64,000 nt of DNA from positions 2,557,484-2,621,483 of the forward strand of contig CM119270.1 in assembly GCA_051294375.1 (NCBI GenBank), in the 5' to 3' direction. This DNA comes from Paraspadella gotoi (lineage: Eukaryota > Animalia > Chaetognatha). Below, in pieces: positions 9,030 through 34,886 of the stretch. Position 1 is the first letter of the stretch. Every line of letters begins with the position of its first letter. Below the pieces are notes generated by a model, which was not told the origin of the DNA, did no database searches, and worked only from the letters and a program-made list of their open reading frames with translations. The translations under genes were made by a program, and so were the position numbers.

Positions 9030-9817
9030 ATTTATTGCTTTCTTTTCTTCTTTTTTCTTTCTTTCTTTCTTCTTATTTATTGCTTTCTTTCTTTCTTTAT
9101 TTCTTTCTTCTTTTTCTCTTCATTTATTGCTTTCTTTCTTTCTTTTCTCACTTCTTTCTTTATTTTCTTTCTTTCTTTCTTTTCTTTCTTTCTTTCTTTC
9201 TTTCTTTTTCTTTTTTTTAATTTTTATTGCTTTTTTAATTTTTGTCTTTCCTTTAGGTTCCTTTGCTATTGGAAAAAAACTTCATCTGATATTATTTTTT
9301 TTTTTTGACATTGTTTCTTTGTACTAAATAATTTTTTCGAGCATATTAAATCTAATCTAAAATCTCTCATTTACTTCTTTTCACTCAATTACTTTTTTTT
9401 TCTATATTTCTTTTACATTTATTTATTCTTCTTTCTTTCTTTTTTTTTACCAACATTTCTTTCTCGAATATTTCTTTCATTCTTTCTATCTTCCATATCC
9501 TTGTCTTTCTATCTCTTTCTATCTTCCATATCCTTGTCTTTCTATCTCTTTCTATCTCTTTCCATCATTAGCATTTCATCTTCGTATCTTCCAAATTTCT
9601 ACCGAGATTCCATGTTTTTCATTCACCGGCGACAAAACCATTTAGTCTATTCGACCCATTTTTGTTGTGATGGGGGTGAGGGGGTGACAAAGAGGGTGGT
9701 GGANNNNNNNNNNNNNNNNNNNNNNNNNNNNNNNNNNNNNNNNNNNNNNNNNNNNNNNNNNNNNNNNNNNNNNNNNNNNNNNNNNNNNNNNNNNNNNNNN
9801 NNNCACTTTGTGAAAAA

Positions 9818-10151
9818 GACCCCAAAGCGCTTAACGTTACTCTCGATGTGTGAGGCTTTCTTGGATTTGGACATATGAAAATTGAAATGACATTGCAATG
9901 TATTAGATTGCAGATAGCAAATTTTATGTACAGAGATTGCAGTGACTGAAATTTGTGAAACTTGTGAAGATTGTGGTCTTTTACTTGAGACGCTGACATT
10001 CATTTTTAAGTTTAACATACACACATTTTTTCTTACATCGCAAAGTCGACAGCGACCGACAAAAGCCACCGACGCCAGCGACCGACACTTACGTAAATGA
10101 GCCGACTGGAATTCGGCGTCCAACGTGGCGGTAGGCGAATGGAGGGTGGCG
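9818..10151 (+). repeat. Copy 1 of a ~330-bp segment repeated at 12936-13400
   Basis: gacccaaagcgcttaacgttactctcg...cacacattttttcttac...caacgtggcgg aligns to 12936-13400. Confidence 0.8.
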
Positions 10152-10894: not shown

Positions 10895-12935
10895 AAACCA
10901 ACACAATAAAACATAGAGTATATGGATCGCGATCAAACTTTAAAAAAAAAAAAAACCCAAAAGAGATTCATCTATTTTTTATTATTTTCTTTGTAGAGAT
11001 CACCATCTTAATTTGTGATTATTAAAAAATCTTTTAAATTATATTTAAAGTCCCCTGTTAAAGAACAACAAGACTATTCGAATAGCCAAAAGACACAGAG
11101 GCCCTCCCTTTCTCCTTTTTCCAACCGCGCCTCTCACTCTGTGTGGAAACGAAAAAAAATAGATCTTTTGGCGAGAGTTTTCACCACACGCTCTTCACAG
11201 TCCTCACACATCGGGTCCCTCCCTTTCATCTCTACCGGTCATTCTTCACCCAAAATCGTTCGTAACTCGCGTTCATTTCGAGCTGGGCCGTACGTCACCC
11301 CATTGAATTCCCTTTTCAATTTTCACCAGACCCAAGATAACGTTTCGTCGTCGTTCGTCGTACGTCGTCCGTCGTCCGTCGTCCGTCCGTCGAATGCCTG
11401 GAATCTGAAACACGGTCTAAGATCACGAGTGACGCCTTTACTTGTCGGTATGCTCCCGATCGCCCAAATTGCGCCGACGCAATGTGCTTGCGCTGCCGAC
11501 CTCGCAAAGCAATGCCGGGAACGCCAATGCCGCCGCAATGTTGCTACAATGCACCACGCAATTCAATTCTTCGATATGCCGGCCGACGCAAATTTCTCAC
11601 ACGCAAAGCTGACCGCAAGACACAAACAACACAGAAAACAAGTTTCAGAGAAAACGTAACCAAAGCGGGCGGCATACCGGACAAATGCCGACAGCCCCGC
11701 CCCCACGCAAATGTTGTTTCGACACCTGACGCAAAGCCCCGACCGCAATGCCGACCCAAATGCCAAGTCGCTTGGACCGGGATATTCATTGAGCGCGCCC
11801 GTGGATTTACCTAGCGGCACACAATTCTAAATCGTTTTGATAAGTGTAAAAATTAGGGAAAATAATTCCAAAGATGCTTTCAAAATTAGGATATTGTTTT
11901 TTAAACTCTTTTTCCCCTAACAATTTAATATTTTGTTAGAACAAGAAGGAATTTGCCGAAATAGTATGATCATAAGGTTTTCCTTGTTTCGCCTTACCCT
12001 CTCACTCACCCTCTTCTCTCCTTCCTTCACCCAGCAATCCCTCTACCCCGCCAGTAAACGTTTTATCTCATATCAAATTGAAGCTGACGCACATATGCCA
12101 CTCAACTCACAGGGAGTGGAATACCTAATTCCACCAAAATTATCGGAGCCTTTTTATGACACCAATTAAAACAAACAGAGTGAAAATCTTCTTATGTAAC
12201 TTTGACAACCCACTCGTCACCCTACTCTCCTCGTCTTCATTTTTACCGCGATCCCTCCACGGGTAGATCTCCCACTCACCCCACGCTCACTTCCATCATC
12301 ACTCTCTCTACCTCTCTCTCTCTTCTCTCTCTCTCTCTTCTCTCTCTCTCATCTCATCTCTCTCCCTCTCCTCTCTCTCTCTCCTCATTCACTCTCCTCT
12401 CTCTCTCTCTCTCTTTCACTTCCCTCCTCTCTCGTCTCTCTCGGTTCCTCTCTTCCTCTCTTTCTCCCTCTACATCTCAGTCTCCCTCTCTCTCTCTCTC
12501 TCTCTATCTCACTATCTCTCCTCTCTCTTTCTTCCTCCCTCTCTCTCGCTCTCTCATGTCTCTTTATCTCTCTCTCTCTCATCTCTCTCTCTCTCTCTCT
12601 CTCTCTCCTTCTCTCTACTCTCTCTCTCTCTCCTCTCTCTCCTCCCTCTCTCTCTTCTCTTTCTTCATCTACTCTCTCTTCCCCCCCCCTCTACCCTCTC
12701 CCTTCCACGTCCACAAAATCCACCGCCCTGTTTTTAGGTCCGTGCCGCGCCATCGCTGCTGACCCCGAAAGCGCAGGAAGGGCTGAAGAGCGGGAAAATT
12801 GCCGTAGTTTTTATACATTCTCCGCAATGAAAAAAAGAAAGCAGAAGGTGGGTGCAAAATAATAAGGCGGAAGTATTTGTGAGGGCGGCGCGATCGCCGG
12901 GAAGCACTCGCCCGTCACTTTAGTTCGAAAAACAG

Positions 12936-13400
12936 ACCCAAAGCGCTCTAACGTTTACTCTCGCCATTGTGCTGCCAGGCTCTTCTTGTGATTTGCCGAC
13001 ATCATGAAAATTCTGAAATGAACATTTGACAAATGTCATTAGATTGCAGATTTACGATAAGCCAAATTTTATGATTTATCAGATGATTGCCACGTGACTT
13101 TGAAATATTCGTATGAAACTTGTGCAAGCAAGATTGTGCGTCTTTTACCGCTGAGATCGCTGACATTCATTTTATTTTTTTAATAAACTCCATTTTAAGA
13201 CACTACACACATTTTTTCTTACCCCATCGCAAAAAGGTCGCACAATAGCGCACCGACAAAAGCAACTACGCCTCACGCGACGACCTGACACTCTACCTGT
13301 CGTCATAAAATTGAGCACCGACACACCTTCTTGGACAATTCGAGACGTCACCAACAAACGTGGACCGCGGTACAGCGCCGAAATGGCAGATCGGCGTGCG
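12936..13400 (+). repeat. Copy 2 of the 9818-10151 segment, carrying many single-base insertions
   Basis: Same sequence order as copy 1 but expanded by scattered 1-2 nt insertions. Confidence 0.75.
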
Positions 13401-14011
13401 CGGGGTGCGTCGCCTGATCAGATGGCGGTTGTTTGGCGGGTGGCGGAGCGGATGGCCGCGTGTGGCTGGTGGGCGGCGTTCGGACGGGGTTTCTCATGGC
13501 GCCGATTTTTTATAGCATGGTCCGCCATCTCGCCGATTCGACCATGTAACCCGATCCGTTTTCCTTCCCCTTCCGGTCCCCACCGTTTACCTTCTTACCA
13601 ATTCCACCGCAATGCTCTGTCCGGAAATTCAGATCTTCGCCAGTCGCGGTTAAGTAATCTAGAAAACGCGCTCTAAACGAAGAAGCCTCGGAGGTAGAGA
13701 TGCAGAGAGAGCGATAGACGCGGCAGCGGTGAGGAAGAGAGAGCAGCAGAGATGCAGAGAGAGAGCAGACGAGAAGAGATCGAGGAAGACAGACGAGACG
13801 GAGAGCATGAAGGACAGAGAAGCGAAAGGAAACGACTACGAGAACAGTAGAGCTTTTGAGAACGAAAACAATGTCGAGTGAACATTCATTATTTTTAACG
13901 TTAACTTTATTCTGACAAATTATAAAACCGACAAACCAAGTATCACACAAATAGCCACGTTATTATTAACGAACTTATTAACGAACACGAACTGTAATAA
14001 ACTGTAAAAAA

Positions 14012-14264
14012 GCATAGGCGACGCGTTGGAACGAGGAGGCTCTGATGACGGTCCGCAGGATAATAATTCAGTGAACCCTGCGGACGCGACTCAGATGCAC
14101 TATGTGAAACAACACAATGAAAGGCTGTGTATGCAATCGCATAGTGTCTGCGCGGTACCCTGAAGATGGCATACCAGCTCTTCCCCGTACGTCCTTAAGG
14201 GGTCTCCATCAACGTCGCCAGGCCCCGAGTTTAGAGGGGTTACAGGTCGACGCCAAACCCGGCC
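14012..14264 (-). ncRNA. 7SL/SRP-RNA-like structured RNA, copy 1
   Basis: Minus strand starts GGCCGGGTTTGGCGTCGACCTGTAACCCC...GGGGCCTG (Alu fold with UGUNR). GGCGACG after the Alu domain pairs perfectly with the 3'-terminal CGTCGCC; ends at TTTTTT. Confidence 0.75.
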
Positions 14265-14713
14265 TGAAGAAAATATTGTGTGTGAAGTGAAATAGTGATC
14301 TTTGAGCGTGAAGTATTCTATTAGTAGGAGAAGAATTAGCCGATGTTGATGATTTGATTGACTGACTGATGAGTGGATTTATTTATTTTTTTTTTTGCAT
14401 GATCGGTAGTAATTCCTTTCATTTCGTTGTTGTTTGATAGTTGTTTCGTATAGAGTTTTTTTTTTTTTTGGTTTTTTTTTTTTAAGAGTTTGTTTTAAAA
14501 AGTTTCTCAACGAAGAAGAAGAAGATAAGAAAGAAAGAAAGAAAGAAGAAAGAAAGAAAGAAAGAAGGAAGAAACGAAAGAGCACAAGTAAGTCAGAGAA
14601 AGAAAGAAAGCGAAAGAAAGACAGTAAAAATTCAAGTTACATTGATCTGGCAAACTCATGGACTTAATGGATCTAAATAGTTCTTTACGCGCACAAAATT
14701 AACGAAATAAAAA

Positions 14714-14960
14714 TGTTGGCGACGTGTTAGAAACCGAGGAGGCTCTGATGACGTTCCGCAGGATAATATCGCTGTACCCTGCGGATCCGCCTCAGACGAC
14801 ACTATGTCAAGCTACGCACCTACGTATGCAATGCACATAGTGCCCAGCGGGTACCCTGAGGTTGGCCATACCAGTTATTCCCGTACGTCCTTGACCGGTT
14901 CCGTCAACGTAACCAGGCCCCCGATTTACACCAGGGTTACAGGTCGACGCCAAACCCGCC
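14714..14960 (-). ncRNA. 7SL/SRP-RNA-like structured RNA, copy 2
   Basis: GGCGGGTTTGGCGTCGACCTGTAACCCTG...CGGGGGCCTG Alu fold; stems CACTATGT/ACATAGTG, TCTGA-GGCG/CGTC-A-TCAGA and TCCGCAGG/CCTGCGGA; ends at TTTTT. Confidence 0.8.
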
Positions 14961-14971
14961 TGAAGAATTAT

Positions 14972-14995
14972 ATGTGTGAAGTGAATTAGTCAATC
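14972..14995 (-). promoter_or_regulatory. Conserved upstream element of the SRP-like RNA genes (consensus GAATCACTAATTCACTTCACAC on minus); counterparts at ~14279, 15494, 16097 and 16693
   Basis: + strand gtgtgaagtgaattagtga(t) recurs ~12-35 nt 5' of all five RNA starts, while the spacers farther away diverge. Confidence 0.55.
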
Positions 14996-15186
14996 CAGAG
15001 AGAAAATATTTCTTTCAGAGGAGATGAATATGGTGATAGATTAGATTGATCGATCAACTGCATGAGTGCGCATTGATTTTTTTACTGTTTTTTTTGGTAA
15101 GAATTTGGTTTTAAAAAGTTTTTACTTGTAAGAAAGAGAAGAGCAGAGAGAACAAATGGAAATTAATGTAGGAAAATTTAATAAAA

Positions 15187-15482
15187 TTATTGGTGACGTG
15201 TAAGAACGGACGAGGCTCTAATCTTGAACGTTCCGCAGCGATTATATATGGACCTGCTACCCTGCGGAGCTTCTCCAGCCTTCAGCATGCACACTATGTC
15301 AAGCATACGAATTTAGGCGGACCATTATGTAATCTGGCAATGCACAATAGTGCCCTCGCGGGTTACCCTGCAGATGTTTAGGTAGTTGGCATACCAGTAT
15401 TCCCCGTACGTCCTTGACCGGTTCTGTCAACGTAACCAGGCCCCCGAATACATAGGGGTTACAGGTCGACGCCAAACCCGCC
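15187..15482 (-). ncRNA. 7SL/SRP-RNA-like structured RNA, copy 3 (3' half carries insertions, possibly read errors)
   Basis: Clean Alu fold TGTAA-CCCC...GGGG-GCC; TGGT..ACGT..AGAAC pairs with 3' GTTCT..ACGT..ACCA; ends at TTTT. Confidence 0.7.
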
Positions 15483-15837
15483 GGAAGAAAAAAAGTGTGA
15501 AGTGAATTAGTGATTCGTAAGAATTTGTTTTAAAAATTTTCTTACTTGTAAGAGAGAGAGAAAGAGAGAGAGATAAAGAGAGATAGAGATAGAGATAGTG
15601 AAAGAGAGAGATAGATAGAGAGTGGATAGGGAGTGGGAGAGAGAGGGGGGAAGAATGAGACGATAGAAAAAAGATTAAAATGGAGAGAAAAAGAAAGAAA
15701 GAGAGAATGATATTAGATGACAGAAGATTTTTAAGTTAACTGTGGACGTACATACCAACATACGTACATACCAACAAAGTGACGCACATACTCACATTCT
15801 TCACGCAACAAATAAATGAAATAAAATTTAACCAAAA

Positions 15838-16085
15838 GGTGGCGACGCGTAAGAAGTTAGGAGGCTCTGATGACAGTCCGCAGGAGATTACCCAATCCTG
15901 CGGAGATGCCTCAGACAACACTACATCAAGCATATGGTGCACCGGAACACCATACGCAATGCACATAATGCCTGCGGGTACCCTGATGATGGTTTAACAG
16001 TATTCCCCGCACGTCCTTTTTTAGTTCTTTCGACGTAACCAGGCCCCCGAGTACACAGAGGTTACAGGTCCACGCCAAACCCGCC
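15838..16085 (-). ncRNA. 7SL/SRP-RNA-like structured RNA, copy 4
   Basis: GGCGGGTTTGGCGTGGACCTGTAACCTCTGTGTACTCGGGGGCCTG; stem GCGTATGGTG/CACCATATGC; compensatory GGCA/TGTC versus GGCG/CGTC in copy 2; ends at TTTT. Confidence 0.8.
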
Positions 16086-16230
16086 TTGAAAACGAAAGCG
16101 TGAAGTAAATTATTCATTCGACTTATTTATTTAATAGGTCACAAATTTAGCGACTGATTGATTAATGAGTTAAGTAATTTTTTTTAGTGTTGTTTGTAAG
16201 AATTTGTTTTGAAAAGTTTGAGAGAGAGAA

Positions 16231-16271
<41 letters not shown>

Positions 16272-16418
16272 TTAGATAAAATAAGTTTCAACGAACAATG
16301 TCGTGTGAATTTTCAGATTTTTAAGTTATTTGTGGACAGACAAACGATAAGATAGGCAGACCAACAAAGTGAAACTTATTGTCACGTTTTTCACGCGCCA
16401 AGACAACTGTAATAAAAA

Positions 16419-16680
16419 TAGAGAGACGCGTCAGAACCAAGGATCGAGACCGCTCTGATGACTTTCCGCAGGATATTACCGCAGCACCCTACGAAATCGC
16501 CTCAGACAACACGACGTCAAACATACGGCTATAGCTCGTCGCCGTATGCTATGCACATCGAATCTGCGGGTACCCTTGTGATTGCATACAAAGTATTCCC
16601 CGCACATTCTCTACCGGTTGTTCCTACGTCCCCAGGCTCCCGTGTGTACAGGGATTACAGGTCGTCGCCTAAACCCCGCC
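16419..16680 (-). ncRNA. 7SL/SRP-RNA-like structured RNA, copy 5
   Basis: GGCGGGGTTTAGGCGACGACCTGTAATCCCTGTACACACGGGAGCCTG, with helix 4 TCCC/GGGA as in vertebrate 7SL/Alu; stem CATACGGC/GCCGTATG; ends at TTTTT. Confidence 0.75.
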
Positions 16681-16824
16681 TGGCGAAAATCCGTCTGAAG
16701 GGAATTGCTGATTCGAGATGAATTAATTTTGGAAATATAATAGAGCGAATGACAAATGGAAACGTTTTTGAAAGCTTTTTATTAGAAGATTTGTAAAAGC
16801 TTTTCTTACTTGAAACGAGGAGAG

Positions 16825-16877
<53 letters not shown>

Positions 16878-17004
16878 AGAGAGAAGAGAGAGAGAGAGAG
16901 AGAGATGAGAGAGAGAGAGGAGAGAGAGAGACTAAGAAAGTTAAGAAAAACTTCTATAATGAAACATAAGTGAAAAAAAGTTTTCAATGTGATACCGAGA
17001 AGAG

Positions 17005-17042
<38 letters not shown>

Positions 17043-17194
17043 AGAGAGAGAGGAGAGAGAGAGAGAGAGGTGACGAAACGCGCGTCGGATCGAGACGAGA
17101 ACCGACGGCACCAATTCGTTGCACCGTGACATCATAATCGGGGCAATGGCCATAATCCTGTCTAAAGGAGAGAGAGAGAGAGAGAGAGAAGAGA

Positions 17195-17253
<59 letters not shown>

Positions 17254-17326
17254 CTAAGGGTGACTAAGAGGCGGGTTTTCCGCTCGGTTGGCTCCAGATC
17301 GGCCGTTCTCGTGATATCTCACGCTG

Positions 17327-17367
<41 letters not shown>

Positions 17368-17377
17368 CTTTTCTCCT

Positions 17378-17422
17378 CATGGTGCTCCCATGGTGTCACC
17401 GTTGGGTGCACCATGGTGCAAC
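17378..17422. promoter_or_regulatory. CCATGG-centred palindromes upstream of PNP exon 1 (X-box-like)
   Basis: TGCACCATGGTGCA palindrome and a second ctcccatggtgtcac ~120-160 nt before the ATG at 17540. Imperfect match to the RFX X-box. Confidence 0.25.
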
Positions 17423-17539
17423 CTTTTCTCTCGCGCGTTGCGTTTTATTTCACGGGAGGATTGGCGTGAGTTGGTGAGGGTGTGAATGGAAGAAGGGTTG
17501 GCGCAGTGAGGAGTGAACGTGACGTAGCGTGGCTGGGCG

Positions 17540-17589
17540 ATGGCGTCGCAGGAAAACTACGTCGGCTGGCGCGGTTCGTATATGGAGTG
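17540..17589 (+). CDS. PNP: Probable first coding exon of PNP (MASQENYVGWRGSYME, phase-2 donor)
   Basis: gcgATGG context, open frame, ends at a strong G|GTAAGT donor, lies in a CpG-rich patch ~1 kb upstream of the conserved exon. Its junction to the next exon is unresolved. Confidence 0.5.
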
Positions 17590-18571
17590 GTAAGTTGTTG
17601 TTTAATAAAAACTATGGTTATGTTTTGTTTTTTAGTTATTGATTTATTGATTTATTTTTTTATTTATTTTATTTTTGCTTTTTAATTCACTATAAATATC
17701 TGAGTGAAACATGTACATTACAATTTTGTTCGTGTCTCAGACGTTTATCATTTTCTTGAGTTGTCTAATTTATTTTGACAGTCATCTTCGTTTTCACTTA
17801 GATAACAAAAACTAGAGCGAAATCAACATTCTGAATGAATTTTTTTTCTTCGTAATTTTACCCAAAATTATTAATAACATTTGAATCATTGAAGCTATAT
17901 CAAGCATTAGACGTCGACGCTTTACAATTTTAAAATCATAATAACTTTTAATATTCGAGTATGAAAGGCGGCAAAATGGATTTTTTTTTCCTTCTCGCTC
18001 GTTCATTCACCTCACAGGGTTCAACACAATTTCATAATTCTTAGCCTCTACCTAATTAATTAATGATTTAGTACGGAGATACATCGTCGTTAAGTTTCTT
18101 CGATCGATTCTACTTTGTGAACTTTTGTTTCAAGTTTTGACGAAATCTTAACCGATTTTGATGAACTCGAAATAAAAATAAAAATTAATTAGGTAATCGC
18201 AAATCCGAACTAGAAAAAGGAAAGAACCGAAATTAAATCAACTTGGGATTTAAGCAATTTTTTTTTTCAAAAAAAATATTCACGAGAAAATACTATTTAG
18301 CCGCAGCTAATTATTTTATCCTCTTTCCGCGACATTTCGTAATTTATTTTTTTAATTATTCATACAATTTATTCTTACCTCGAATTTTGTGATCTAAAGA
18401 AAAGAAAAAAAACCTTTAATTCGTCCTTCTTGAATCAAATAAAAAGGACAAAACGGACAGAAGGACGAGAGCAGCTTAAGCAGCAACCGTTTCAGCATCA
18501 GCGACGCAGGCAGCGTCTTCAGCAGCGTCTTCAACTACATCATCATCGTCGTCACCATCATCGTCGCTCAA

Positions 18572-18784
18572 ATGTGGAAAAGAGACGTCTCCCCGCTTTC
18601 TAACCGCCACGCCCCCTCGGCCGACGAAGCGATTGGCGGCGCTGGAGTGAAGAACCCCTTCGGCTTTGAGGAGTGCCGCGCCGTGGCGGAGTGGCTCGCC
18701 GAGAGGACCTCCATTCGGCCTAGAGTCGGACTCATTTGCGGATCGGGTCTCGGCGGATTGGCCGAGATACTCCAGGATAAGATG
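18572..18784 (+). CDS. PNP: Purine nucleoside phosphorylase exon (5' boundary uncertain, may begin ~18447-18484)
   Basis: FGFEECRAVAEWLAERTSIRPRVGLICGSGLGGLA motif; donor ATG|GTGAGT, phase 0. Confidence 0.93.
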
Positions 18785-18986
18785 GTGAGTGTGGTTGTTG
18801 TTGTTATTGTTGTATTTTGGGGTTTCTGTGTGTCTGTGTGTGTGTATGTGTGTATATGTGTGTGCGTTTGTGTTTTTATGAGTGTGATGGATATATTTTT
18901 TCTCGCACCTTTCCCCCAAAATATATTTTTCTCTCAATTTTTTTAGAATCTTATGACTTTTTTACTTAAATATTTGTTACCTTTTT

Positions 18987-19237
18987 TAGTTGCGTCGCGA
19001 GTACACGCAGAGCAATTCAATTCAATTCAATTCAACTGTTAGGTCGGTCAGTCGTTCTGTCGGCATTTTGTTTTTAAAAAATTCGTATGGAGAATAAAAT
19101 ACGGAATTTTGATGAAGTGCGTGTTTAAACGTGCTAAATACACTCATCGGCCCTGCCACTGCATAACTCATCATAATAATCATTAGATCATAAAAAAATA
19201 AAAGTCACTAGGGCGCAACACATTATTGTTCTTGTTT
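18987..19237 (+). mobile_element. Small Helentron/DINE-1-like (HINE) non-autonomous element in a PNP intron
   Basis: T-run flanks; subterminal inverted repeats GTTGCGTC / GGCGCAAC; internal (AATTC)n and gtcggtcagtc microsatellite; 3' end CTTGTTT. Confidence 0.45.
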
Positions 19238-19342
19238 CAACCATTTCTCCATTTACTCCCTTCATTCTTCTACCCTTCTTTCAACTTTCCTTCTTATTTT
19301 CTTGCCTTTCCACTTGGCCTTACTCAACCCTTACCCTCCAAG

Positions 19343-19472
19343 TCCTTCGACTACAGCGACATCCCAAACTTCCCTACGTCCACCGTCGCTGGACACGAGA
19401 GTCGACTCGTCTTCGGGAGACTCGGCGGACAAGAAGTCGTCTGCATGCAGGGGAGGTTTCACGCTTATGAAG
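19343..19472 (+). CDS. PNP: Purine nucleoside phosphorylase exon
   Basis: [44 protein letters not shown]; AAG acceptor, G|GTAAG donor, phase 0 to 1. Confidence 0.95.
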
Positions 19473-19777
19473 GTAAGGAAAAAGTAAGTTTAAAACTAGC
19501 CTTTACTTAATTGGACAGAGTTGCGTCTTTATATACAAAGTAGTACCGGAAGTTATGTCAGGCAACTTATTCCTCTTCTTTAAATTAAAAAAAAATATGC
19601 AAATGAGGGTTTAAAATGAGGCTTGTAGAAAACAAAAGATAAATACGATATTCTATTAGTTCCAAAATTCGATTATTTCGAAGTCTTTTCACCGTATGTT
19701 AGTTAATTGACATTTTGTAATTTGTTTTCTTCGCCAAGCAACTCTAGATCCTTTAAACCGCATCATCCTTCAAACAG

Positions 19778-19970
19778 GCTATCCTCTGATGCAGTGCGCC
19801 TTCCCCGTCCGCGTCATGCGTTTCCTCGGCGCCACCGTCATGATCATCACCAACTCAGCCGGAGGTCTCAACGTGGACTACAAGGCGGGCGACATCATGG
19901 TCTTGAAGGACCAAATCAATTTGCCGGGATTTTCGGGAGACAATCCTTTAAGGGGACCCAATGACGAGAG
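19778..19970 (+). CDS. PNP: Purine nucleoside phosphorylase exon
   Basis: YPLMQCAFPVRVMRFLGATVMIITNSAGGLN...DQINLPGFSGDNPLRGPNDER; CAG acceptor, AG|GT donor, phase 1 to 2. Confidence 0.95.
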
Positions 19971-20393
19971 GTTTGGGAGGGGGGGTTTAAGGGAATGGGG
20001 CCTTGTGCTCAGCGTATATATGTGAAGTTTGGTCATAGAATATTCTGTAAATAGTAGTAATATTAACATTTCTGATGCCTATGGTGGGAGATATATAAGC
20101 TTATAAAGAAACATGAACGTTGAACAATTAATACGGAATGAGAATTTTATTTCATATTATTATATTATTATATATCATTATTATTATATTTCATTAATAT
20201 AGGAATTTAATTTAAGTGCCTTTGTTATTTTTATGAATTTTGTAAAACTAATATTTAAATTATAAATTCATTTTATAAACAAGCTATCCGAAATCTGAAT
20301 ACGATAGGCAGAGAGCTTTATTTTAAGTTAAATATTTAATTATTTAGATAAGATACCAAATTTTAGTCATACCACCTATCCTTTTTTCACCAG

Positions 20394-20558
20394 ATTCGGT
20401 CCCAGATTCCTAGCGATGAATCGCGCCTACGATCGTTCATTGCGCGATTTATTATTAGCGTCGGCAGAAGAGTTAAACCTTACCTTTGTTCGAGTAGGGA
20501 CGTACGTGAAGATAGGCGGACCTTGCTACGAGACGCCATCTGAGGCAAGGGCTTTGAG
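20394..20558 (+). CDS. PNP: Purine nucleoside phosphorylase exon (not in the ORF track)
   Basis: FGPRFLAMNRAYDRSLR...GTYVKIGGPCYETPSEARALR; CAG acceptor, AG|GTAAG donor, phase 2 to 2. Confidence 0.95.
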
Positions 20559-20814
20559 GTAAGATTGCGCTATTGGAGAAATGTCCATGAGGCTTTTGAA
20601 AGTAGGTAACATTTTTTTTAAGAAAGAAACGAAAATTATTAAAATCACCTAATGATGATGATTATTTTTTCAAATTTATGACCGATTTGTCATAATTTTA
20701 TCAGATTCCCTTTTATAAGACAAAAATTTATACATGGTCATATACAATGCTTCATTGCGAGCATATACAGAAACAATTTAAAACGAAACATCATAAATCA
20801 AAAAGTTTATATTA

Positions 20815-20922
20815 TATAATTTATTTTATGAAATTGGTACAACCAATATAAAAATTATCCATCCATTTAATAAATAAGCTATCTTGTCCCTGACTTTGGA
20901 CAGGCTTTGGTGGTTTAAGGCC
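20815..20922 (+). repeat. Dispersed repeat; inverted copy at ~61078-61178 and partial copy at ~55895-55950
   Basis: aattggtacaaccaatata...taataaataagctatcttg..ctgactttggacaggctttg.tggtttaag versus its reverse complement at 61078-61178. Confidence 0.65.
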
Positions 20923-21115
20923 TCCATCACACTTGCAAGATAATAACATAACAGGTTTCTGCAAGCTTTTAATCAAGCCTCTCTCTATTATAAAACAGTA
21001 AATTCTGGTTCGCCTCTAATTCCCAACCAATTTCCCTTCAACCTCACTTTTTTACTCACCCCCCATCCTCGACCCTTACCTTCCCTCTATTCCCCACCCC
21101 TTCTTCATCTACCAG

Positions 21116-21263
21116 GATGTTGGGGGCGGACGCGGTGGGGATGTCCGTCGCCCACGAGGTTATCATCGCCGTCCACTGCGGGATGCGGGTCGTGGGGATG
21201 TCGCTAATTGCCAATTTGGTCGTCGACGATGTTGACGAGGTTGTGGAGACGAATCACGAGGAG
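21116..21263 (+). CDS. PNP: Purine nucleoside phosphorylase exon (not in the ORF track)
   Basis: MLGADAVGMSVAHEVIIAVHCGMRVVGMSLIANLVVDDVDEVVETNHEE; CAG acceptor, GAG|GTGAG donor, phase 2 to 0. Confidence 0.95.
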
Positions 21264-21445
21264 GTGAGGTCCGGGTAAAGTGGAAGGAGGGTGGGGTCAG
21301 GTTGGGTTCTGGATGGGGTTGGGTCAAGTGGGGTTTTATATTTCTTTCTTTCTTTCTTTCTTTTTTTCTTTCTTTCTCTCCTTTTTCTTCTTTTCATGTT
21401 TTCTTTCCTCTCTTTTTTATATTCTTCTTTCTTTTTTTCTTCTTT

Positions 21446-23124
21446 TAGTCGGAGTCTGCTTATTCAGCAGATCCCGACTCTATAACTCAGACTTTTTAAA
21501 CTCACTTTTTCGGTCCGTCGGTCCGCCTCCCCTCAATATTGTCGGGCACACACTTATATCATGTCAGAACATCGAATTATGATAAATTATGCAAAAAAAA
21601 TGATGTCCGTCCGTCCGTCTGTCTGTCCGTCCGTCCGTCCGTCCGTCCCACCTTAGCAAAAAAACACCAATTACTCGTGATTGATGGATGGATTTAAATG
21701 AAATTTTGTGTGTGGATAGGTAAGTGTGTGATTTGAGCTGGATATTAAGTTTCGATGGAATCGTTCCGAGTGGAAATGAGTTTTAAATGGAAAAAAACAA
21801 AAAAAAAATATATTCACTATTTGAAAACCAATTGCTCATGAGTGATGGCTGATTGACCTGGAATTTTGTATGTGGGTAGAAAGGTGTATTGTGATTGAAC
21901 AGCGAATCAAGTTCGATGGAATAGTTTGATGTTGGAAATGAGTTTTAAATGGAAAAAAAACAAAAAAACCTGTTTTACTAATTGTTATGCTTCTTTTTCT
22001 CTTTTATATTATGTATCTGCAGGACGATGTAATTGAATAAATCAAATAATTAATCAGGTAATTAATCAATGTATGTTAAATAAATTAATCAATAATTAAT
22101 AATAGTCAATCAATCCGTCCATCCGTCCCATCTTAGGCAAAAAGCTCAATTACACTCGTGATTGGCTGGTGGATTGGAATAAATTTTTGTGTCGCCGGTA
22201 GGAAAGTGGTGATAAAGCTGTGGATATAAATATTTCGAAGAATCCGTGTGAGTGAAATTAGTGTTAAAATGGAAAAAAATAAGTCGAATTTACTAAAATC
22301 TTTTACTTTATTTTAACAATTAAATACTCCAATTATCATAATTGGATGGATAGCATTGAGTTGGAATTTGTGTGTGTGGGTAGGAAAATCTGTTATACGA
22401 ATGCCTTGATATAAAGTTTCAGTGGAAACGTACCAGTGCGAAATGAGTTTAAATGAAAAATATATGATGTTGATCACATTTGACTGAATTTTATTTTTTA
22501 ACCCATGATAGATCTGAGATGAAATTTGTGGCCGTAGAAAAGGAGTAGAAAGTGAATAAAAGTTTGACGGAATGCAATGAAAAAATTAGCAACGTGAAAA
22601 AAATGATGCAATGTTGAAAAGAATCGATGCATAAAAAAATCTTAAAAGTCATTAAGGATCGTCGCTATTGCATAAAAGAGGAGAGAGAGAGAGAAAATCG
22701 AGATTAAATGAGGTGTGAGAGAGAAAGAGAGAGAGTGAGAGAAAGAGAGAGAGAAGAACATAAATAAAAAAATCTTAAAAGACTCAAGATCGAGCAGAGC
22801 CCACTATCATAGAAAATTAATGAGAAAAACCCAGGAAGATAAACAAACAATGATCATGCGATAACGAAATTGTTGGATGTACTAGTAATTGATTGAGGTA
22901 TACAATTGTATTGATTTAACTACCTGTAATGTAATTTTGACTGTAATAGGAAATTCGATTATTGAATTCGATGAATAATCAATAATTGATGTCGATCTGA
23001 ATAGTCATTCACGCTGTTGATGATAGTCATTCAGTGATGCGATGATTGTCATTCATTGATCGATGATTTGTCATTCATTGATGCGATGGATAGTCAATAA
23101 AACAACAAATGCGTTATGAGTGAA

Positions 23125-23178
<54 letters not shown>

Positions 23179-24303
23179 AGAAGAGAGAGACAGAGAGAAA
23201 GAGAGAGAGAGAGATAGAAAGAAAGAGAAATAAATCCACGAAAATCTCGGGATGAAAATATGGGATATTGTATTGAAAAAAAGCGCGGAAAAATGGCGCA
23301 ATAATAAAAAAGTTTTTAGAAGGAAAAAAATAATCAGAATTTTTCAAAAAACAACAGGATCACGCAAAAGATCGGACAGATAGGGACAGACACACACAGA
23401 GAGACAGAGAGACAGAAAAGAAGAGAGCAAAAAAGAGAGAGAGAGGAGAGACAGCCGCTGCAAGAGAAAAAGAGAAAGAGAAAGAGCGATATATAATAAT
23501 TAAAAAAGAGAGAGAGAGAGAGAAGCTCTACAGCCCCTTTACTCGTTAAAGAATCAGCGAGTACTTATGGCGCCGCACGCTAGCGTGAGCTATTCTCTAC
23601 CCCAAAGACCCGGGGTTCGCGCCCTGTTCGCCGGCATCGTTTTTACATTAGTGAACCCACATTATATCTAAAAAATTTTTTGTAAAAAAAAAAAAAGAGA
23701 GATAGAGAGGAGAGAGACGGAGAGAGAGAGAGAGAAGAGAGAAAGAAGCTGGACAGACGCTGCAGAGCCGCGAACTCGTTTTAGAAGAAGCAGTGACCGG
23801 AGAAAGAAAGAGAGCAGAGCCGACATATAATTAAACGTTTTGTTTTTGTAAATAAAACATTAAACAAATACCATATCTTGCATTATGAAACATTGGAGAA
23901 TTTTAAAGATCTGTGATGATTGAAGCCAATATGAAACAACTTCCAACTCCCTATGATATCACACTTTCAGAACCACCATGATGGTGCAAAAACACAGTGC
24001 GAGACCGAAAAGCTCAAACCCGAAAAAAAATCTAGACAGGACGGGCTTTGCCCTTGCCTGCTCCGATAATTAGAGGATATTTTTTGTTTTTGATAAAATG
24101 TAAAACAAAACATTTAATAACTGTCCTGACTCAATTTTAAGACATCGATGATGAACAAGCTGAATATAAATTATAATTAATCTATTAATTATATTAATTA
24201 ATTATAACTAATAATTAATTAATTAATCTATTAATAAATTAATTAATCAATAATTAATTAATTATCGTAGGCAGCATCCGACATTGTTTGTCAACACTTG
24301 TTT
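21446..24303 (+). mobile_element. Helentron/DINE-1-like element (possibly composite) filling the last PNP intron
   Basis: 5' palindrome AGTCGGAGTCTGCT-tattc-AGCAGATCCCGACT after a T run; (CCGT)n microsatellite at 21605-21647; ~120-bp internal tandem repeats 21660-22560; 3' subterminal GCAG(C)ATCCGAC followed by ACTTGTTT. Confidence 0.5.
23560..23645 (+). mobile_element. tRNA-derived SINE head or tRNA pseudogene
   Basis: A-box-like TGGCGCCGCACGCTAGCG, B-box-like GGGTTCGCGCCC at tRNA-like spacing, followed by TTTTT. No convincing cloverleaf. Confidence 0.45.
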
Positions 24304-24566
24304 CCTTCTTTCTTTCTTTTTTTTCTTTTTTTCTTGTTTTTTTTTTTCTTTCTTGCTTTCTTTCTTCTTTTCTTTCTTTCTTTCTTTAATTTTTCTATCC
24401 CGATTCCTAGTTGATATTATATTTTCTTTATATTTCCATCAGGCCCTGCTCCTTGTCGATCAGACCCAAATATTTGTCTGTCAGACATCCCTAATCGATC
24501 AGGCTTCTCTCCCATGTCAATCAGGCGCCGTCCTTTTTTAATTCTCCCTTTATCTTCTTCCACCAG

Positions 24567-24719
24567 GTGCTTGAGACGGCCAAGAACCGGGCGAATATCA
24601 TGGAGCAGCTCATGACTCTTTTCATCTCGAAATTGAGTGAAAATAATTTGGAACCGGCGCAATTTCGTCCTGCGATCGACGGTTTTTGCGAATCTATGCG
24701 ATCGAGACGGACGATTTAA
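24567..24719 (+). CDS. PNP: Purine nucleoside phosphorylase terminal exon
   Basis: Pyrimidine tract plus CAG|GTG, completing NHEE-VLE; VLETAKNRANIMEQLMTLFISKL...RRTI then TAA. Confidence 0.9.
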   Translation: MLETAKNRANIMEQLMTLFISKLSENNLEPAQFRPAIDGFCESMRSRRTI

Positions 24720-25422
24720 TTGGCGGGGAAAAAAAATTTAAGGAGATAGTTATTTAAACTTTGTCATTATTTTTATTATTAAATAGATCAATTGTTTGAG
24801 AAAAAAAAAGAGAAATAATCTTTGAAATAATAAAAAATTCATGATAAAAAAAAAAATCTTACAATCTGGAAAAAATTTTTGCGACTCAGTTTTTAATAAT
24901 TATTATATTATGGTGGACTAAAATCTTTATTTTCATTTGCGGCAGTTAATTTCTGTATTTTTTTGCTGAAGAACTCCATAACAGAATCGAGTTAGAATTT
25001 AAAGATTTCTAAATTTGGTCCTTTAATTAAATAAAACCAAATGAAAAGGCGGGAAAATGGAAATGTTTTTTTGTTTTTCCTCGTCGGATGTTTTGAAATC
25101 TTTTTTCATCAAGAAACGTCGTCTTTCGTCATTGTCGTCGTCGTCGTCGTTGTCGACGCCCAAAACTTTTTCACAGATTTCGTTAAAAATCTGATTTACA
25201 TAATCAAGAAAATTCGAGACTGAACAAAACAAGTCGATATTTTTCTCTCTCAGATTCAAATTTCATTTTAGGCGAAAGAAAAAAAACAGAAACTCGTTTC
25301 ATTTTTTGGGGAGAATGAAGAAAAATGAAGAGAATGAGGAAAATAAAGATGGCGAATGTGAGAGAAAATATGGACGAATTAAAAAATTTGGAGTTTTGTG
25401 AATATAATTAATTTAGAAAATA

Positions 25423-26189: not shown

Positions 26190-29100
26190 AGAGAGAGAGA
26201 GAGAGAGAGAGAAAGTTTAGGCTTCGGACTTTTACGCTTGGTTTATTATTGACGGATGTTTATTGCACGGTTTTGCCATGGAAAACTCGACGAGAAGAGA
26301 GGGGAAAACCCGAAGTCGCAGGGTGGAAAAGAAGTGGGGAGGGTTGGAAAACAGGGTGAGAGGGTGGAAAAGGAGTGGGAGGAGTGGGAAAAAAAGGGTG
26401 AGAGGGTGGAAAAAGGGCGGTAGAGGGGTGGAAAAGGGGTGAGAGGGGTGGCAAAAGGGGTGTGGAAGGGGAAGAAAAGGCGCGGAGCTGGGGTTGAGAG
26501 GGATGGTATAAAGGGTTACCGAGGGCTGGGGGGATGACAAAGGGCTGTGAGAGGGTGAAAACGAGGTGTGAGAAGGAGGGAAGAAAAGGGGGTGAGAGGT
26601 GTTTTTTAAAGTGAAGGAAGGTTGAGGCGCGGGTGGTTAGAAAGATGTGGGACGACCAATTTTGGGTAATTGCCGACGCATATCGAGAATAAGGCAAATG
26701 GCGCATCCGTGGGGCAAAGTAGTTAATTTTGAATCAGTTTGACGTCAAGCTGGAGCTTTGAAATGCCAGGAGGACACTTAAAATATTGGGTGGCGGGTAT
26801 ATTCGCCCACCGTTCTTGGCTCCAAATAAAGCCCCGAATCGCATTGCTCTGAGGCGCGGCAGGGAAGCGTCAGTTCCAGCCTGCCCAGTGCCATGCCATG
26901 CCGATGCCAGACGTTAAACAAGCGACGGCGTGAACAAGGTTCTGCTTTGAGTTGGATCAAAATACGCTGGATCCGGTCTGACGGTTGGTCCCGACACTTT
27001 GATGTGAGGAAGAGAAGAGACGGAGAGGAGGAGGAGAGGGGAGATTAAGGGGAACGTCCCAGAAAGAGAAAGAAGAAAAGCCGGAGAGTGGGAAGAGGGG
27101 AGAAAGGGGAGAAGGGGAAGGCGCGACAAAAAAAAAAGAAAGCATGGAAGTGGAATATCTAAAATGCCCTAATTGTTAAATAACAAAACAACTATAGCCA
27201 GTTGGATGGCAAACAAATGGTCGGATCTGGAGAGCCCTACAAATAATTTAAGCAAGAAGAAATAAGCTAATACGGAATGATTGATTCTTGGTAATGGTTT
27301 ATTACTGAACTTTAAATTTATGATGCTTAAACAAGGATGCATAACACGTTATCTAAGTATAAAAGGAAGGGTTGAGAGGAAGCGAAAGACAAGATGTCGG
27401 ATCATGCCGAGAGAAACGAGAGAAGAGAGGAATCGATTGTACTTGAGGAGAGAGAGCGTAATTAATTAGAATAATAATAATTCAACGTTAGATTAATTAA
27501 TTAGCGGCAAAGACATTAATTAATCTGATATTTGCATCCGAAAAATGGTTGTTACGTTGGGAAGTATAATTAAGTTGAGCAAGAGGAACTGATTAATTAA
27601 TTAAATTTGATTAATTATTGAGAGAGAGAGGCATTAGCTAGTAGAGTTAGTATTAGAAGGCTGATTTAAAGTGCTTAGATTAGTTTTTCGGCGCAAATTC
27701 TCTACTTTATATCGTTCGTCTATTTTCCTCGGTCGAAAGAGAGAGAGAGAGAGAAAAGTTTAGGCTTCGACTTTTACGCTTGTTTATTATTGACGGATGT
27801 TTATTGACGGTTGCCATGGAAACTCGACGAGAGAGGGGGAAACCCGGAAGTCGAGGGGTGGAAAANNNNNNNNNNNNNNNNNNNNNNNNNGAAGTGGGAA
27901 GGGTTGGAAAAAGGGTGAGAGGGTGGAAAAGGAGTGAGGAGTGGGAGAAAAAAAAAAGGGTTTGAGAGGGTGAAAAAGGGCGGTAGAGGGTGGGAAAAGG
28001 GTTGTGAGAGGGTGGAAAGGGGTGTGGAAGGGGAAGAAAAGGGGAGTGAGAGGGATGGTAATAAAGGGTTTAGAGGGATGAAAAGGTGTGAGAGGGTGAA
28101 AAGAGGTGGAGAAGGGGGGAAGAAAGGGGGTGAGAGGTTTAAAGTGAAGGAAGGTTGGGGTGTTAAGAAATTGGAGACAATTTGGTATTTGACGATATGA
28201 GAATAGAAATGGGCATCCGTGGGGGCAAATAGTTAATTTTTGAATCAGTTTGACCGCAAGCGAGTTTGAAATGCCAGAGACACTTAAATATTGTGGCGGG
28301 TATATTCGCACAGTTCTTGGCTCCAAATAAGCCGCCAATCCATTGGCTCTGAGGGCGGAGGGAACGGCGTCATTCCAGCCTTGCCATGCCATGCCATGCC
28401 TATGCCCAGACGTTAAACAAGCGACGTGAACAAAGGTTCTGTTTGAGTTGGATCAAAATACGCTGATCGTTGACGTTGGTCCGACACTTTGAGTGTGAGG
28501 GAAGGAGGAAGAGGAGGAGGAGGAGGAGGAGGAGGGGAGATTAAGGGGAAGTCAGAAAGAAGAAAGAGAAAAAGCTGGGAGGAGTGGGAGAGAGGGGAGA
28601 ATAGGGGAGAAGGGGAAGTGCGGACAAAAAAAAGAAAAGCATGGGAAGTGGAATATCTAAAATGCCCTAATTGTTAAATAACAAAACAACTATAGCCAGT
28701 TGGATGGCAAACAAATGGTCGGATCTGGAGAGCCCTACAAATAATTTAAGCAAGAAGAAATAAGCTAATACGGAATGATTGATTCTTGGTAATGGTTTAT
28801 TACTGAACTTTAAATTTATGATGCTTAAACAAGGATGCATAACACGTTATCTAAGTATAAAAGGAAGGGTTGAGAGGAAGCGAAAGACAAGATGTCGGAT
28901 CATGCCGAGAGAAACGAGAGAAGAGAGGAATCGATTGTACTTGAGGAGAGAGAGCGTAATTAATTAGAATAATAATAATTCAACGTTAGATTAATTAATT
29001 AGCGGCAAAGACATTAATTAATCTGATATTTGCATCCGAAAAATGGTTGTTACGTTGGGAAGTATAATTAAGTTGAGCAAGAGGAACTGATTAATTAATT

Positions 29101-29373
29101 AAATTTGATTAATTATTGAGAGAGAGAGGCATTAGCTAGTAGAGTTAGTATTAGAAGGCTGATTTAAAGTGCTTAGATTAGTTTTTCGGCGCAAATTCTC
29201 TACTTTATATCGTTCGTCTATTTTCCTCGGTCGAAGGGTGTTAGAAAGTTGGAGACAATTTGGATTGACGATATTGAGAATGAGAAATGGCATCCGTTGG
29301 GGCAAATAGTAATTTTGATCAGTTTGACGTCAAGGCTGAGTTTGAAATCCAGAGACACTAAATATTGTGGCGG
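26190..29373 (+). repeat. ~1.5-kb tandem duplication (two full copies plus a third fragment running into a gap)
   Basis: 26190-27735 versus 27737-29234. The last ~590 bp look identical (duplicate 62-aa ORFs in the track); the rest differs mainly by indels. Confidence 0.9.
27810..27823. promoter_or_regulatory. RFX X-box GTTGCCATGGAAAC (indel-altered copy at ~26270)
   Basis: Perfect match to the X-box consensus GTYNCC-AT-RGNAAC. Confidence 0.5.
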
Positions 29374-30445: not shown

Positions 30446-30644
30446 CGGTTCGTCGAAAATGTTGCGCCTCAGAAATCGGATATAAAGCGACGACGGTTAT
30501 AACGAGATCGAATCTTAACGTCGATATCATTTTTTTTTTAATTTTCTTTCTTTTTTTTATTTATTTACCTTAATTTTTTCCTTTCTTTCCATTTTTCTTT
30601 TCTTTTCCCTTTGTCTCCCTGCGCCATATATATTTTCTTTTCTC

Positions 30645-34839: not shown

Positions 34840-34886
<47 letters not shown>

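What the first reader, a model, noticed from the sequence alone, without database searches (positions are those of the whole stretch)
14012..16680. Tandem cluster of five 7SL/SRP-like Alu-domain RNA genes on the minus strand
Seen: five ~250-nt conserved units in diverged, microsatellite-containing spacers. On the minus strand each begins with a full SRP Alu 5' fold: GGC...GCC closing helix, GGT(TT)/(CG or GG)ACC helix 3, a UGUAA (UGUNR) junction and helix 4. Helix 4 covaries as CCCC/GGGG (copy 3), CCTC/GGGG (copy 4) and TCCC/GGGA (copy 5; CCTGTAATCCC...CGGGAG). The 3' end pairs with the strand right after the Alu domain, as SRP helix 5 does, and also covaries: GGCGACG/CGTCGCC (copy 1), TGGT/ACCA (copy 3), GGGGACG/CGTCTCT (copy 5). 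Many substitutions give G-U pairs only on the minus strand (e.g. TTCGTAGG/CCTGCGGA, CATTATGT/ATGTAGTG), which fixes the orientation. Established: this is the SRP9/14-binding fold of 7SL, Alu and BC200 RNA; human 7SL begins GCCGGGCGCGGTGGCGCGTGCCTGTAGTCCCAGCTACTCGGGAGGCTG (from memory). Inference: an expressed, structure-selected family of 7SL-derived RNAs in an invertebrate-type genome. To my knowledge 7SL derivatives are described mainly in primates/rodents and few other lineages.
Basis: partly seen in the sequence, partly recalled or inferred. Interest (0 to 1): 0.92.

Follow-up and report, generated by a model that had tools for sequence, protein, structure and literature searches.

The report
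Alu-headed RNA genes lacking S domain
Five neighbouring repeats in an unidentified invertebrate are predicted to fold into ~250-base RNAs that begin like the signal-recognition-particle (7SL) RNA and human Alu but carry three hairpins where the protein-targeting half should be, so they are likely a separate family of 7SL-derived small RNA genes, a kind that the papers found describe only in vertebrates.

Summary
Five minus-strand units of 245-293 nt, 66-80% alike, lie at 14016-16680. Each starts with an SRP Alu-type head: a descriptor scan finds exactly these five heads in 64 kb, against about 0.004 expected per shuffled core. Metazoa_SRP is Rfam's top match from the first base in 4 of 5 copies, but only at 12-20 bits against a cut-off of 70. 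The two ends pair as helix 5.

New here: the interior folds into three hairpins with variable loops and no SRP helix-6 or helix-8 motif. A conserved box lies at about -28 to -16. A T4-6 run follows every unit, with no A-tail or target duplication. One RNA-like run from the same or a very close species holds one 186-nt contig confined to a unit core; it is a sixth variant, not one of the five.

These are not canonical SRP RNA genes and do not look like SINE insertions. Best reading (0.6): a Pol III gene family of 7SL-derived RNAs that keeps the SRP9/14 handle and carries a new domain. Host lineage, genome-wide copy number, a separate canonical 7SL gene and protein binding could not be tested.

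The parts
16421..16680 (-). Unit c5, 260 nt; Alu-type head about 16680-16635
   Evidence: (Metazoa_SRP 20 bits, E 0.02)
15838..16085 (-). Unit c4, 248 nt; head 16085-16042, hairpin A about 16012-15973, B about 15973-15917, C about 15916-15866
   Evidence: (12.3 bits, E 0.34)
15190..15482 (-). Unit c3, 293 nt; intact head, interior with 40 private inserted bases (noisy sequence or decay)
   Evidence: (15.4 bits, E 0.44)
14716..14960 (-). Unit c2, 245 nt; head 14960-14916
   Evidence: (15.1 bits, E 0.051)
14016..14264 (-). Unit c1, 249 nt; head with 3-bp helix 4 and poor loop3-loop4 complementarity
   Evidence: (no SRP match)
16100..16112 (-). Upstream box, -27 to -15 of c4; candidate external Pol III promoter element (inferred)
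15497..15509 (-). Upstream box, -27 to -15 of c3
14976..14988 (-). Upstream box, -28 to -16 of c2
14282..14294 (-). Upstream box, -30 to -18 of c1
16695..16707 (-). Degenerate version of the upstream box, -27 to -15 of c5 (read by eye; not matched at 1 mismatch)
   Evidence: printout; absent
16414..16418 (-). T5 run just after c5, Pol III terminator-like
15834..15837 (-). T4 run just after c4
15183..15186 (-). T4 run just after c3
14709..14713 (-). T5 run just after c2
14006..14011 (-). T6 run just after c1

Best explanation
The five units are likely a tandem family of small RNA genes derived from 7SL, predicted to be read by RNA polymerase III into ~250-nt RNAs that keep the SRP Alu head and the helix joining the two ends but carry three hairpins in place of the S domain. 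Shown by sequence and calls: the five units, the Alu-type head with its U-turn bases, end-to-end pairing, hairpins B and C, the fixed-position upstream box, the T-run after each unit, and the absence of helix-6 and helix-8 motifs. Inferred: origin by duplication of a 7SL gene, rebuilding of the interior and local tandem expansion; Pol III transcription; binding of SRP9/14 by the head, which would stabilise the RNA and bring it to ribosomes as for BC200 and Alu RNA; no SRP19/SRP54 binding and so no part in signal-peptide targeting; conserved inner stems of hairpins B and C as a docking site for another protein, with the variable loops free to drift or to pick targets. The most likely role is a ribosome-associated translation regulator.
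For: Head: the descriptor finds 5 hits in the window, all at unit starts, against 0.0035 expected per shuffled 250-nt core and a mean of 1.2 per shuffled window. Rfam's top match is Metazoa_SRP from model position 1 = unit base 1 in 4 of 5 copies. The G.U pair opening helix 3 and the following G, which correspond to the G4/U23/G24 triad that PMC12265939 (passages) ties to SRP9/14 binding, are invariant in 5 of 5. The head is the best-kept part, 83% against 72% for whole cores and 52-55% for far flanks. Structure: 91.4% of cells paired, 9 two-sided changes; G.U outnumber A.C 33 to 6 in varying pairs. Gene anatomy: the box matches 4 of 5 copies exactly at -30 to -15 and occurs once elsewhere in the window at 1 mismatch; T4-6 follows 5 of 5. 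Expression hint: run X1 has a spliced contig of the neighbouring PNP gene (GT..AG joint, 1 other letter over 594 laid bases) and one 186-nt contig lying wholly inside a unit core with no loose ends, while unit spacers away from simple repeats and 16432-18119 have no cover. No helix-8 motif in 0 of 5 copies, and the apical loops vary in size and sequence.
Against: Rfam scores are 12-20 bits against a cut-off of 70, and c1 gives none. The Alu-type fold is 3-9 kcal/mol above the lowest-energy fold of the isolated head in all five copies. The loop3-loop4 pairing test passes in 4 of 5, but 45% of random loops pass it too, and c1 fails. The descriptor and the box pattern were written after seeing the copies. 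Hairpin A is the lowest-energy fold in isolation only in c5 and c4, c3 does not fold better than shuffles, and in whole-body folds c1 and c2 pair part of their 5' body locally. The RNA evidence is one contig from one run whose RNA status is the tool's guess; it is a mosaic (c4-like 5' part, c3-like loop, c2-like 3' part) that matches none of the five exactly, and contigs show neither strand nor ends. No homologue was found outside this window. No genome was held, so a separate canonical 7SL gene and the copy number are unknown.
Confidence: 0.6

Rival explanations
1. The units are copies of a 7SL-headed short retroelement (SINE1-like), or its source genes, that were tandemly duplicated here; the structure serves mobilisation or is a leftover and the RNA has no host function.
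For: 7SL-derived SINEs keep the Alu-domain structure because SRP9/14 binding is needed for retrotransposition (PMC7245038, first quarter of the text; PMC11760393, passages). Unchecked notes from this scan report 7SL-headed SINEs in two other invertebrate genomes, which raises the prior. Copies are 20-34% diverged and c3 may be decaying.
Against: No A-rich tail (longest A run in the 60 nt downstream is 2-5) and no target-site duplication beyond one low-complexity 6-mer. A T-run follows directly and an upstream box is kept at a fixed distance, which a retrocopy would not carry. The model finds no copy elsewhere in 64 kb. Known SINE1 heads lack about 183 central bases (PMC13023118, passages), whereas these keep a folded interior of about 150 nt.
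Confidence: 0.15
2. These are the animal's actual SRP RNA genes, with an S domain rebuilt beyond recognition: the three hairpins would stand for helices 6, 7 and 8, and SRP54 would have changed with them.
For: The overall plan is that of SRP RNA: Alu head, long helix joining both ends, distal multi-helix junction, T-run, several tandem copies, and a length of 245-260 against 299 model positions. Altered helix 8 with co-evolved Srp54 is known from basidiomycetes, where it hid the genes from searches (PMC4605306, passages). No canonical SRP RNA is in the window and the rest of the genome is unseen.
Against: Helix 8 is described as conserved in all SRP RNAs, and even the altered fungal forms keep the A-C pair of its symmetric loop. 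Here no copy has the motif, and the stem of hairpin C is fully paired. Apical loops differ in length (4-19 nt) and sequence among copies, with no shared GNAR or GRRA tetraloop. The end-joining helix has only 18 modelled pairs, too short to span the ribosome as SRP does (inference).
Confidence: 0.1
3. The units are genes for an unrelated structured Pol III RNA, and the Alu-like head is a chance or convergent likeness.
For: The best Rfam E-value is only 0.02 and the copies are not independent trials. The Alu-type fold is not the lowest-energy fold of the head. No sequence link of the interior to 7SL was demonstrated.
Against: The likeness begins at the first conserved base, includes helices 2, 3 and 4, UGUNR and the triad in the right order, and is followed at once by the end-joining helix; chance is about 0.0035 per core. 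No other Rfam family scored in the units and there is no tRNA.
Confidence: 0.1
4. The array is an assembly artefact: one gene written several times from noisy long reads.
For: The window holds two back-to-back duplications dominated by indels (4.0 kb at 90% with 303 gap letters and 95 mismatches; 1.6 kb at 88% with 152 and 39), and c3 is indel-rich.
Against: c1, c2, c4 and c5 differ mostly by substitutions (c4 vs c2: 60 mismatches, 17 gap letters; c5 vs c2: 56 and 19) that keep the pairs, which read errors would not do. At most c3 is affected.
Confidence: 0.03

Closest known systems
Metazoan SRP RNA / 7SL (Rfam RF00017)
   Same: 5' head with helices 2, 3, 4 and UGUNR; G.U pair plus G at the U-turn; 5' and 3' ends paired as helix 5; T-run after the gene; weak but correctly placed Rfam match in 4 of 5 copies.
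   Different: Scores 12-20 bits against 70; no helix 6 GNAR loop and no helix 8 SRP54 site; three long hairpins with variable loops instead; shorter end-joining helix; copies 20-34% diverged.
BC200 / BC120 RNA (BCYRN1) of anthropoid primates (PMC12265939, passages)
   Same: A stand-alone Pol III RNA with an Alu domain that binds SRP9/14, has no S domain and is linked to translation control; this is what the present RNAs are proposed to work like.
   Different: BC200 came from an Alu monomer and has a 40-nt A-rich stretch and a variable 3' end; these units have no A-rich stretch, have a folded three-hairpin interior enclosed by helix 5, and form a tandem family in an invertebrate.
SINE1 elements: Alu, B1, Tu, shrew-mole Urop, hagfish SINE1-1_EBu (PMC7245038; PMC13023118)
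   Same: 7SL-type Alu domain without the S domain.
   Different: Those are dispersed in thousands of copies, have an A-rich or microsatellite tail and a central deletion of about 183 nt; these are clustered, end in a T-run, keep an upstream box and hold a structured interior.
Non-canonical basidiomycete SRP RNAs (PMC4605306, passages)
   Same: SRP-type RNA missed by standard searches because the S domain is altered.
   Different: They keep helix 8 with its A-C pair and lack helices 3 and 4; here the Alu head is complete and helix 8 is absent.

Membership tests
Metazoan SRP RNA (RF00017) | Score at or above Rfam's gathering cut-off of 70 bits | tested here: not met
   0 hits at gathering; best 20 bits; 12.3 and 15.1 bits for c4 and c2, none for c1
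Metazoan SRP RNA (RF00017) | Alu head: helices 2, 3, 4 with UGUNR between helices 3 and 4 (PMC4605306) | tested here: met
   5 of 5 copies, and the only 5 hits in the window; not the lowest-energy fold of the isolated head
Metazoan SRP RNA (RF00017) | U-turn triad G4.U23 and G24 (PMC12265939) | tested here: met
   pair 14-32 is G.U in 5 of 5 and the next column is G in 5 of 5
Metazoan SRP RNA (RF00017) | Loop3-loop4 pseudoknot, three pairs in human (PMC8137916) | tested here: inconclusive
   loop 3 GGC kept in 5 of 5; three pairings possible in c2-c5, mostly G.U, one in c1; 45% of random loops pass the same test
Metazoan SRP RNA (RF00017) | Helix 5 pairing the strand after the head with the 3' end | tested here: met
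   14 + 4 pairs, 90% of cells paired, 4 pairs with two-sided change; much shorter than in the Rfam model
Metazoan SRP RNA (RF00017) | 5e motif, the SRP72 site (PMC2905702, section 5) | not tested
   no formal search was run
Metazoan SRP RNA (RF00017) | Helix 6 with a GNAR tetraloop, the SRP19 site (PMC2905702) | tested here: not met
   apical loops of hairpins A-C share no tetraloop and none listed is GNAR
Metazoan SRP RNA (RF00017) | Helix 8 with GRRA tetraloop and symmetric loop, the SRP54 site | tested here: not met
   strict and relaxed patterns match 0 of 5 copies (the patterns were recalled motifs); hairpin C stem is fully paired
Metazoan SRP RNA (RF00017) | Assembly with the SRP proteins | not testable with these tools
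   needs binding or pull-down assays
7SL-derived SINE (SINE1) | 7SL-type Alu head | tested here: met
   the host's own 7SL could not be compared
7SL-derived SINE (SINE1) | A-rich or simple-repeat tail directly after the element | tested here: not met
   T4-6 follows each unit; longest A run in the next 60 nt is 2-5
7SL-derived SINE (SINE1) | Target-site duplication | tested here: not met
   none of 6 nt or more in 4 of 5; one T-rich 6-mer in c3
7SL-derived SINE (SINE1) | Many dispersed copies | tested here: inconclusive
   only the five clustered copies in 64 kb; no genome held
7SL-derived SINE (SINE1) | Internal A and B boxes | not tested
   no formal scan; by eye the loop-3 region could serve as an A box, and a B-box-like word is seen in c5 only
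BC200-type Alu RNA | Alu monomer followed by an A-rich stretch and a variable 3' end | tested here: not met
   the interior is three hairpins closed by helix 5, with no long A-rich stretch
BC200-type Alu RNA | Discrete Pol III transcript that binds SRP9/14 | not testable with these tools
   one unstranded contig of a variant copy; binding untested

The most novel reading that the evidence does not exclude
This animal lineage runs its signal recognition particle on an RNA that has lost helix 8, the SRP54 site held to be universal from bacteria to humans, and has replaced the S domain with three new hairpins encoded as a family of diverged variants.
Probability: 0.1. Interest if true: 0.95.

Novelty: new variant of a known kind. 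Interest (0 to 1): 0.72.

Why it matters
In the papers read, 7SL derivatives are retroelements of supraprimates, a shrew mole and a hagfish (PMC7245038, PMC13023118), plus the primate BC200 RNA born from Alu. A clustered invertebrate gene family that keeps the SRP9/14 handle and puts a folded new domain where the S domain was would show that the Alu head has been reused as a module for non-mobile RNAs independently of Alu retrotransposition. It would offer a natural test of what Alu-domain RNAs do at the ribosome outside SRP. Because it scores far under Rfam's cut-off, such families would be invisible to standard annotation. If instead it is the lineage's only SRP RNA, it would overturn the universality of helix 8.

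Tried and rejected
Whole-genome search: no genome held. Sequencing runs: no RNA holder listed; one run was offered by species label. Homologue hunts found nothing. A hairpin-C pattern gave 5 metagenome loci whose likeness stops at the seed. Head patterns gave 0 and 8 viral loci and 0 prokaryote loci. The model built from the five copies scored all 13 loci at 9 bits or less. Further copies in the window: none; the best other scores were 14.2 bits (the opposite strand of a unit's own hairpin C) and 10.2 bits. tRNA or tmRNA: none. Other Rfam families in the units: none; only weak chance-level hits at edges or spacers. My first guess that the host is a penaeid shrimp was rejected: the neighbouring PNP gene is 54% identical to a decapod protein but 60-69% to an unnamed group (80% in the best exon), and a tree of 33 of the 146 proteins held put that group outside both the arthropod and the vertebrate clusters (the window's own protein was not a row, and one gene gives weak resolution). 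A Pfam scan of 18 of the 145 listed ORFs gave only PNP as a convincing hit. The loop-loop test proved uninformative. Paper searches for a prior description found none that described such an RNA: in a library of open-licence papers only. Older subscription surveys of SRP and 7SL-like RNAs were not seen and no supplements were opened, so a prior mention there cannot be excluded. Look-ups of earlier findings by sequence, place and most word sets were empty.
Full report
Observation. Five related units lie on the minus strand at 16680-16421 (c5), 16085-15838 (c4), 15482-15190 (c3), 14960-14716 (c2) and 14264-14016 (c1), separated by spacers rich in AG microsatellite. Pairwise identity of the cores is 66-80% (mean 72%) and of the first 50 nt 76-92% (mean 83%). 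The 40 nt upstream average 67%, the 40 nt downstream 61%, and more distant flanks 52-55%, against 49-52% for shuffles. A covariance model built from the five finds only these five in the 64-kb window, with or without filters.

The head. Rfam gives nothing at gathering scores. At relaxed threshold Metazoa_SRP is the best match in c5 (20 bits, E 0.02), c3 (15.4), c2 (15.1) and c4 (12.3), each on the minus strand and each starting model position 1 at the unit's first G; c1 has no SRP match. The cut-off is 70 bits, so this is a weak signal. I therefore scanned for the Alu-head anatomy as the literature describes it: helix 2, helix 3 opened by a G.U pair, UGUNR, helix 4 (PMC4605306 passages; PMC12265939 passages; PMC8137916 passages). 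The scan gives five hits in the window, one at each unit start; 12 shuffled windows give 0-3 (mean 1.2), and shuffled cores give 0.0035 per 250 nt. The descriptor was written after I had seen the copies, and the copies share ancestry, so this counts as one observation. The G4.U23 pair and G24, which PMC12265939 ties to SRP9/14 binding, are invariant in 5 of 5. Helix 4 has one two-sided change and two wobble changes. Two results cut the other way. The Alu-type fold is 3-9 kcal/mol above the lowest-energy fold of the isolated head; that is unsurprising for a junction held by tertiary contacts and protein, but it is not support. The loop3-loop4 pairing is possible in c2-c5 and not in c1, but 45% of random loops pass my test.

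The body. The strand after the head pairs with the 3' end (14 + 4 modelled pairs), enclosing three hairpins A, B and C of about 40, 57 and 52 nt. On the 77-pair structure 91.4% of 374 cells pair and 9 pairs change on both sides; 0 of 500 shuffles reach this and slid controls pair 37-45%. The structure was hand-edited from a fold of the same five related sequences, and a few of the nine changes rest on c3 or on G.U/U.G swaps, so this is moderate evidence. Hairpins B and C fold in isolation in c5, c4, c2 and c1. Hairpin A does so only in c5 and c4. The inner stems are conserved while the apical loops vary from 4 to 19 nt with no shared sequence. No copy has the helix-8 motif under a strict or a relaxed pattern (recalled patterns), and none of the apical loops is a GNAR tetraloop. 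Helix 8 is described as present in all SRP RNAs, with its A-C pair kept even in aberrant fungal forms. Orientation is fixed by the Rfam matches, the T-runs, the better minus-strand folding (z -2.6 to -3.1 in four copies; c3 -0.05; plus strand +0.45 to -2.35) and 33 G.U against 6 A.C among varying pairs (partly built in by how the structure was derived).

Gene anatomy. A run of 4-6 T begins within 0-4 nt of each 3' end; four or more T is the Pol III stop signal (PMC11760393 passages). A 13-nt box sits at -30 to -15 of four copies without mismatch to a pattern drawn from them, with a degenerate version in c5; only one other site in the window matches at one mismatch. There is no A-tail and no target duplication. 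This is the anatomy of tandemly duplicated Pol III genes rather than of retroposed copies (inference).

Expression. No RNA holder was listed; one run, X1, was offered by species label and its RNA status is the tool's guess. It holds a contig of the neighbouring PNP gene that skips a 305-base GT..AG intron and shows 1 other letter over 594 laid bases, so it behaves as RNA of this or a very close species. Of 448,509 records read, one lies on 14000-16750. It is 186 nt long and is wholly accounted for by 15956-16046 (c4-like), 25 letters resembling the c3 loop, and 14748-14812 (c2-like), with no loose ends. It spans about +40 to 33 nt short of a unit's end and does not run into flanks. This is a sixth variant or another allele. 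It suggests the family is transcribed but gives no strand, ends or level, and does not show that any of the five window copies is expressed.

Host and spread. No genome is held. The PNP gene points to an invertebrate outside arthropods and vertebrates, related to an unnamed group in JGI, ENA and Logan data; the lineage stays open. Scans of metagenome, viral and prokaryote collections gave only chance seeds. The assembly has indel-rich redundant stretches, and c3's 40 private inserted bases may be read error. The other four copies differ mainly by pair-preserving substitutions and look real.

How it most likely works. Inferred chain: a 7SL gene was duplicated; the copy kept the Alu head and the proximal helix 5, lost the SRP19 and SRP54 sites, and acquired or refolded a three-hairpin interior; the gene then multiplied in tandem with its upstream box and terminator. 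The RNA would bind SRP9/14 through the head, as a 46-nt Alu 5' domain does in human extracts, and so reach ribosomes, while hairpins B and C would recruit another partner. It would work like BC200, as a translation-linked regulator, without belonging to that family. I give this 0.6. Rivals: a SINE-like element (0.15), the lineage's true but rebuilt SRP RNA (0.1), an unrelated RNA with a convergent head (0.1), an assembly artefact (0.03).

What is known. PMC7245038 (first of four parts read) and PMC13023118 (passages) confine 7SL-derived SINEs to supraprimates, hagfish and a shrew mole. PMC2905702 was read as passages and one section; PMC10351891 as two passages that added nothing. Ten searches of the open-licence library returned no description of an Alu-headed RNA with a replaced S domain in an invertebrate; subscription papers and supplements were not seen. 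Unchecked notes from this scan mention 7SL-headed SINEs in two other invertebrates and an SRP-like duplicate lacking the SRP54 site in an archaeon. I did not test them; they raised my prior for the SINE rival and lowered the sense that a 7SL head in an invertebrate is unique.

Verdict. The feature is real and under structural constraint. It is not a canonical SRP RNA and lacks the SINE hallmarks that could be tested. It is best filed as a new variant of 7SL-derived Alu-domain RNA. Interest 0.72: the anatomy is clear and cheap to test, but ancestry rests on a weak Rfam score plus motif anatomy, expression on one contig, and function on analogy.

Noticed in passing
window 18570-24720, + strand: A spliced purine nucleoside phosphorylase gene (Pfam PF01048; six coding stretches by tblastn) starts about 1.9 kb from unit c5 and points away from the cluster. 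Its closest relatives are an unnamed group in JGI, ENA and Logan data.
   Followed up: partly
window 33015-36913 / 37900-41731 and 26191-27737 / 27735-29235: Back-to-back duplications of 4.0 kb (90%) and 1.6 kb (88%) that differ mainly by indels, in a window with 18 N runs, eight of them exactly 25 long; probably redundant, poorly polished assembly.
   Followed up: partly
window 15322-15308, - strand (loop of hairpin B in c3): By eye this loop matches 13 of 16 letters of the Metazoa_SRP consensus at model positions 108-123 (helix 5, 5' strand) printed, with one gap; the variant in run X1 has a similar loop. It is not significant alone and the other four copies lack it, but it may hint that the interior is refolded 7SL sequence.
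   Followed up: no
window 14748-14812 and 15956-16046 (run X1, record 1): The RNA-run variant is a mosaic of a c4-like 5' part, a c3-like loop and a c2-like hairpin C, which suggests gene conversion or unequal crossing-over among the copies, or a further copy not in this window. The tool reports it as a 1143-base skip, but it is not a splice.
   Followed up: partly
window 15725-16268 / 16315-16872: The spacers on either side of c4 align over 576 columns at 69%, showing that whole units with their spacers were duplicated in tandem.
   Followed up: partly
window 30088-30516 / 55222-54744 and 9813-10069 / 12930-13266: Two further dispersed repeats (86% inverted over 480 columns; 72% direct over 338 columns) seen in the self-comparison.
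   Followed up: no
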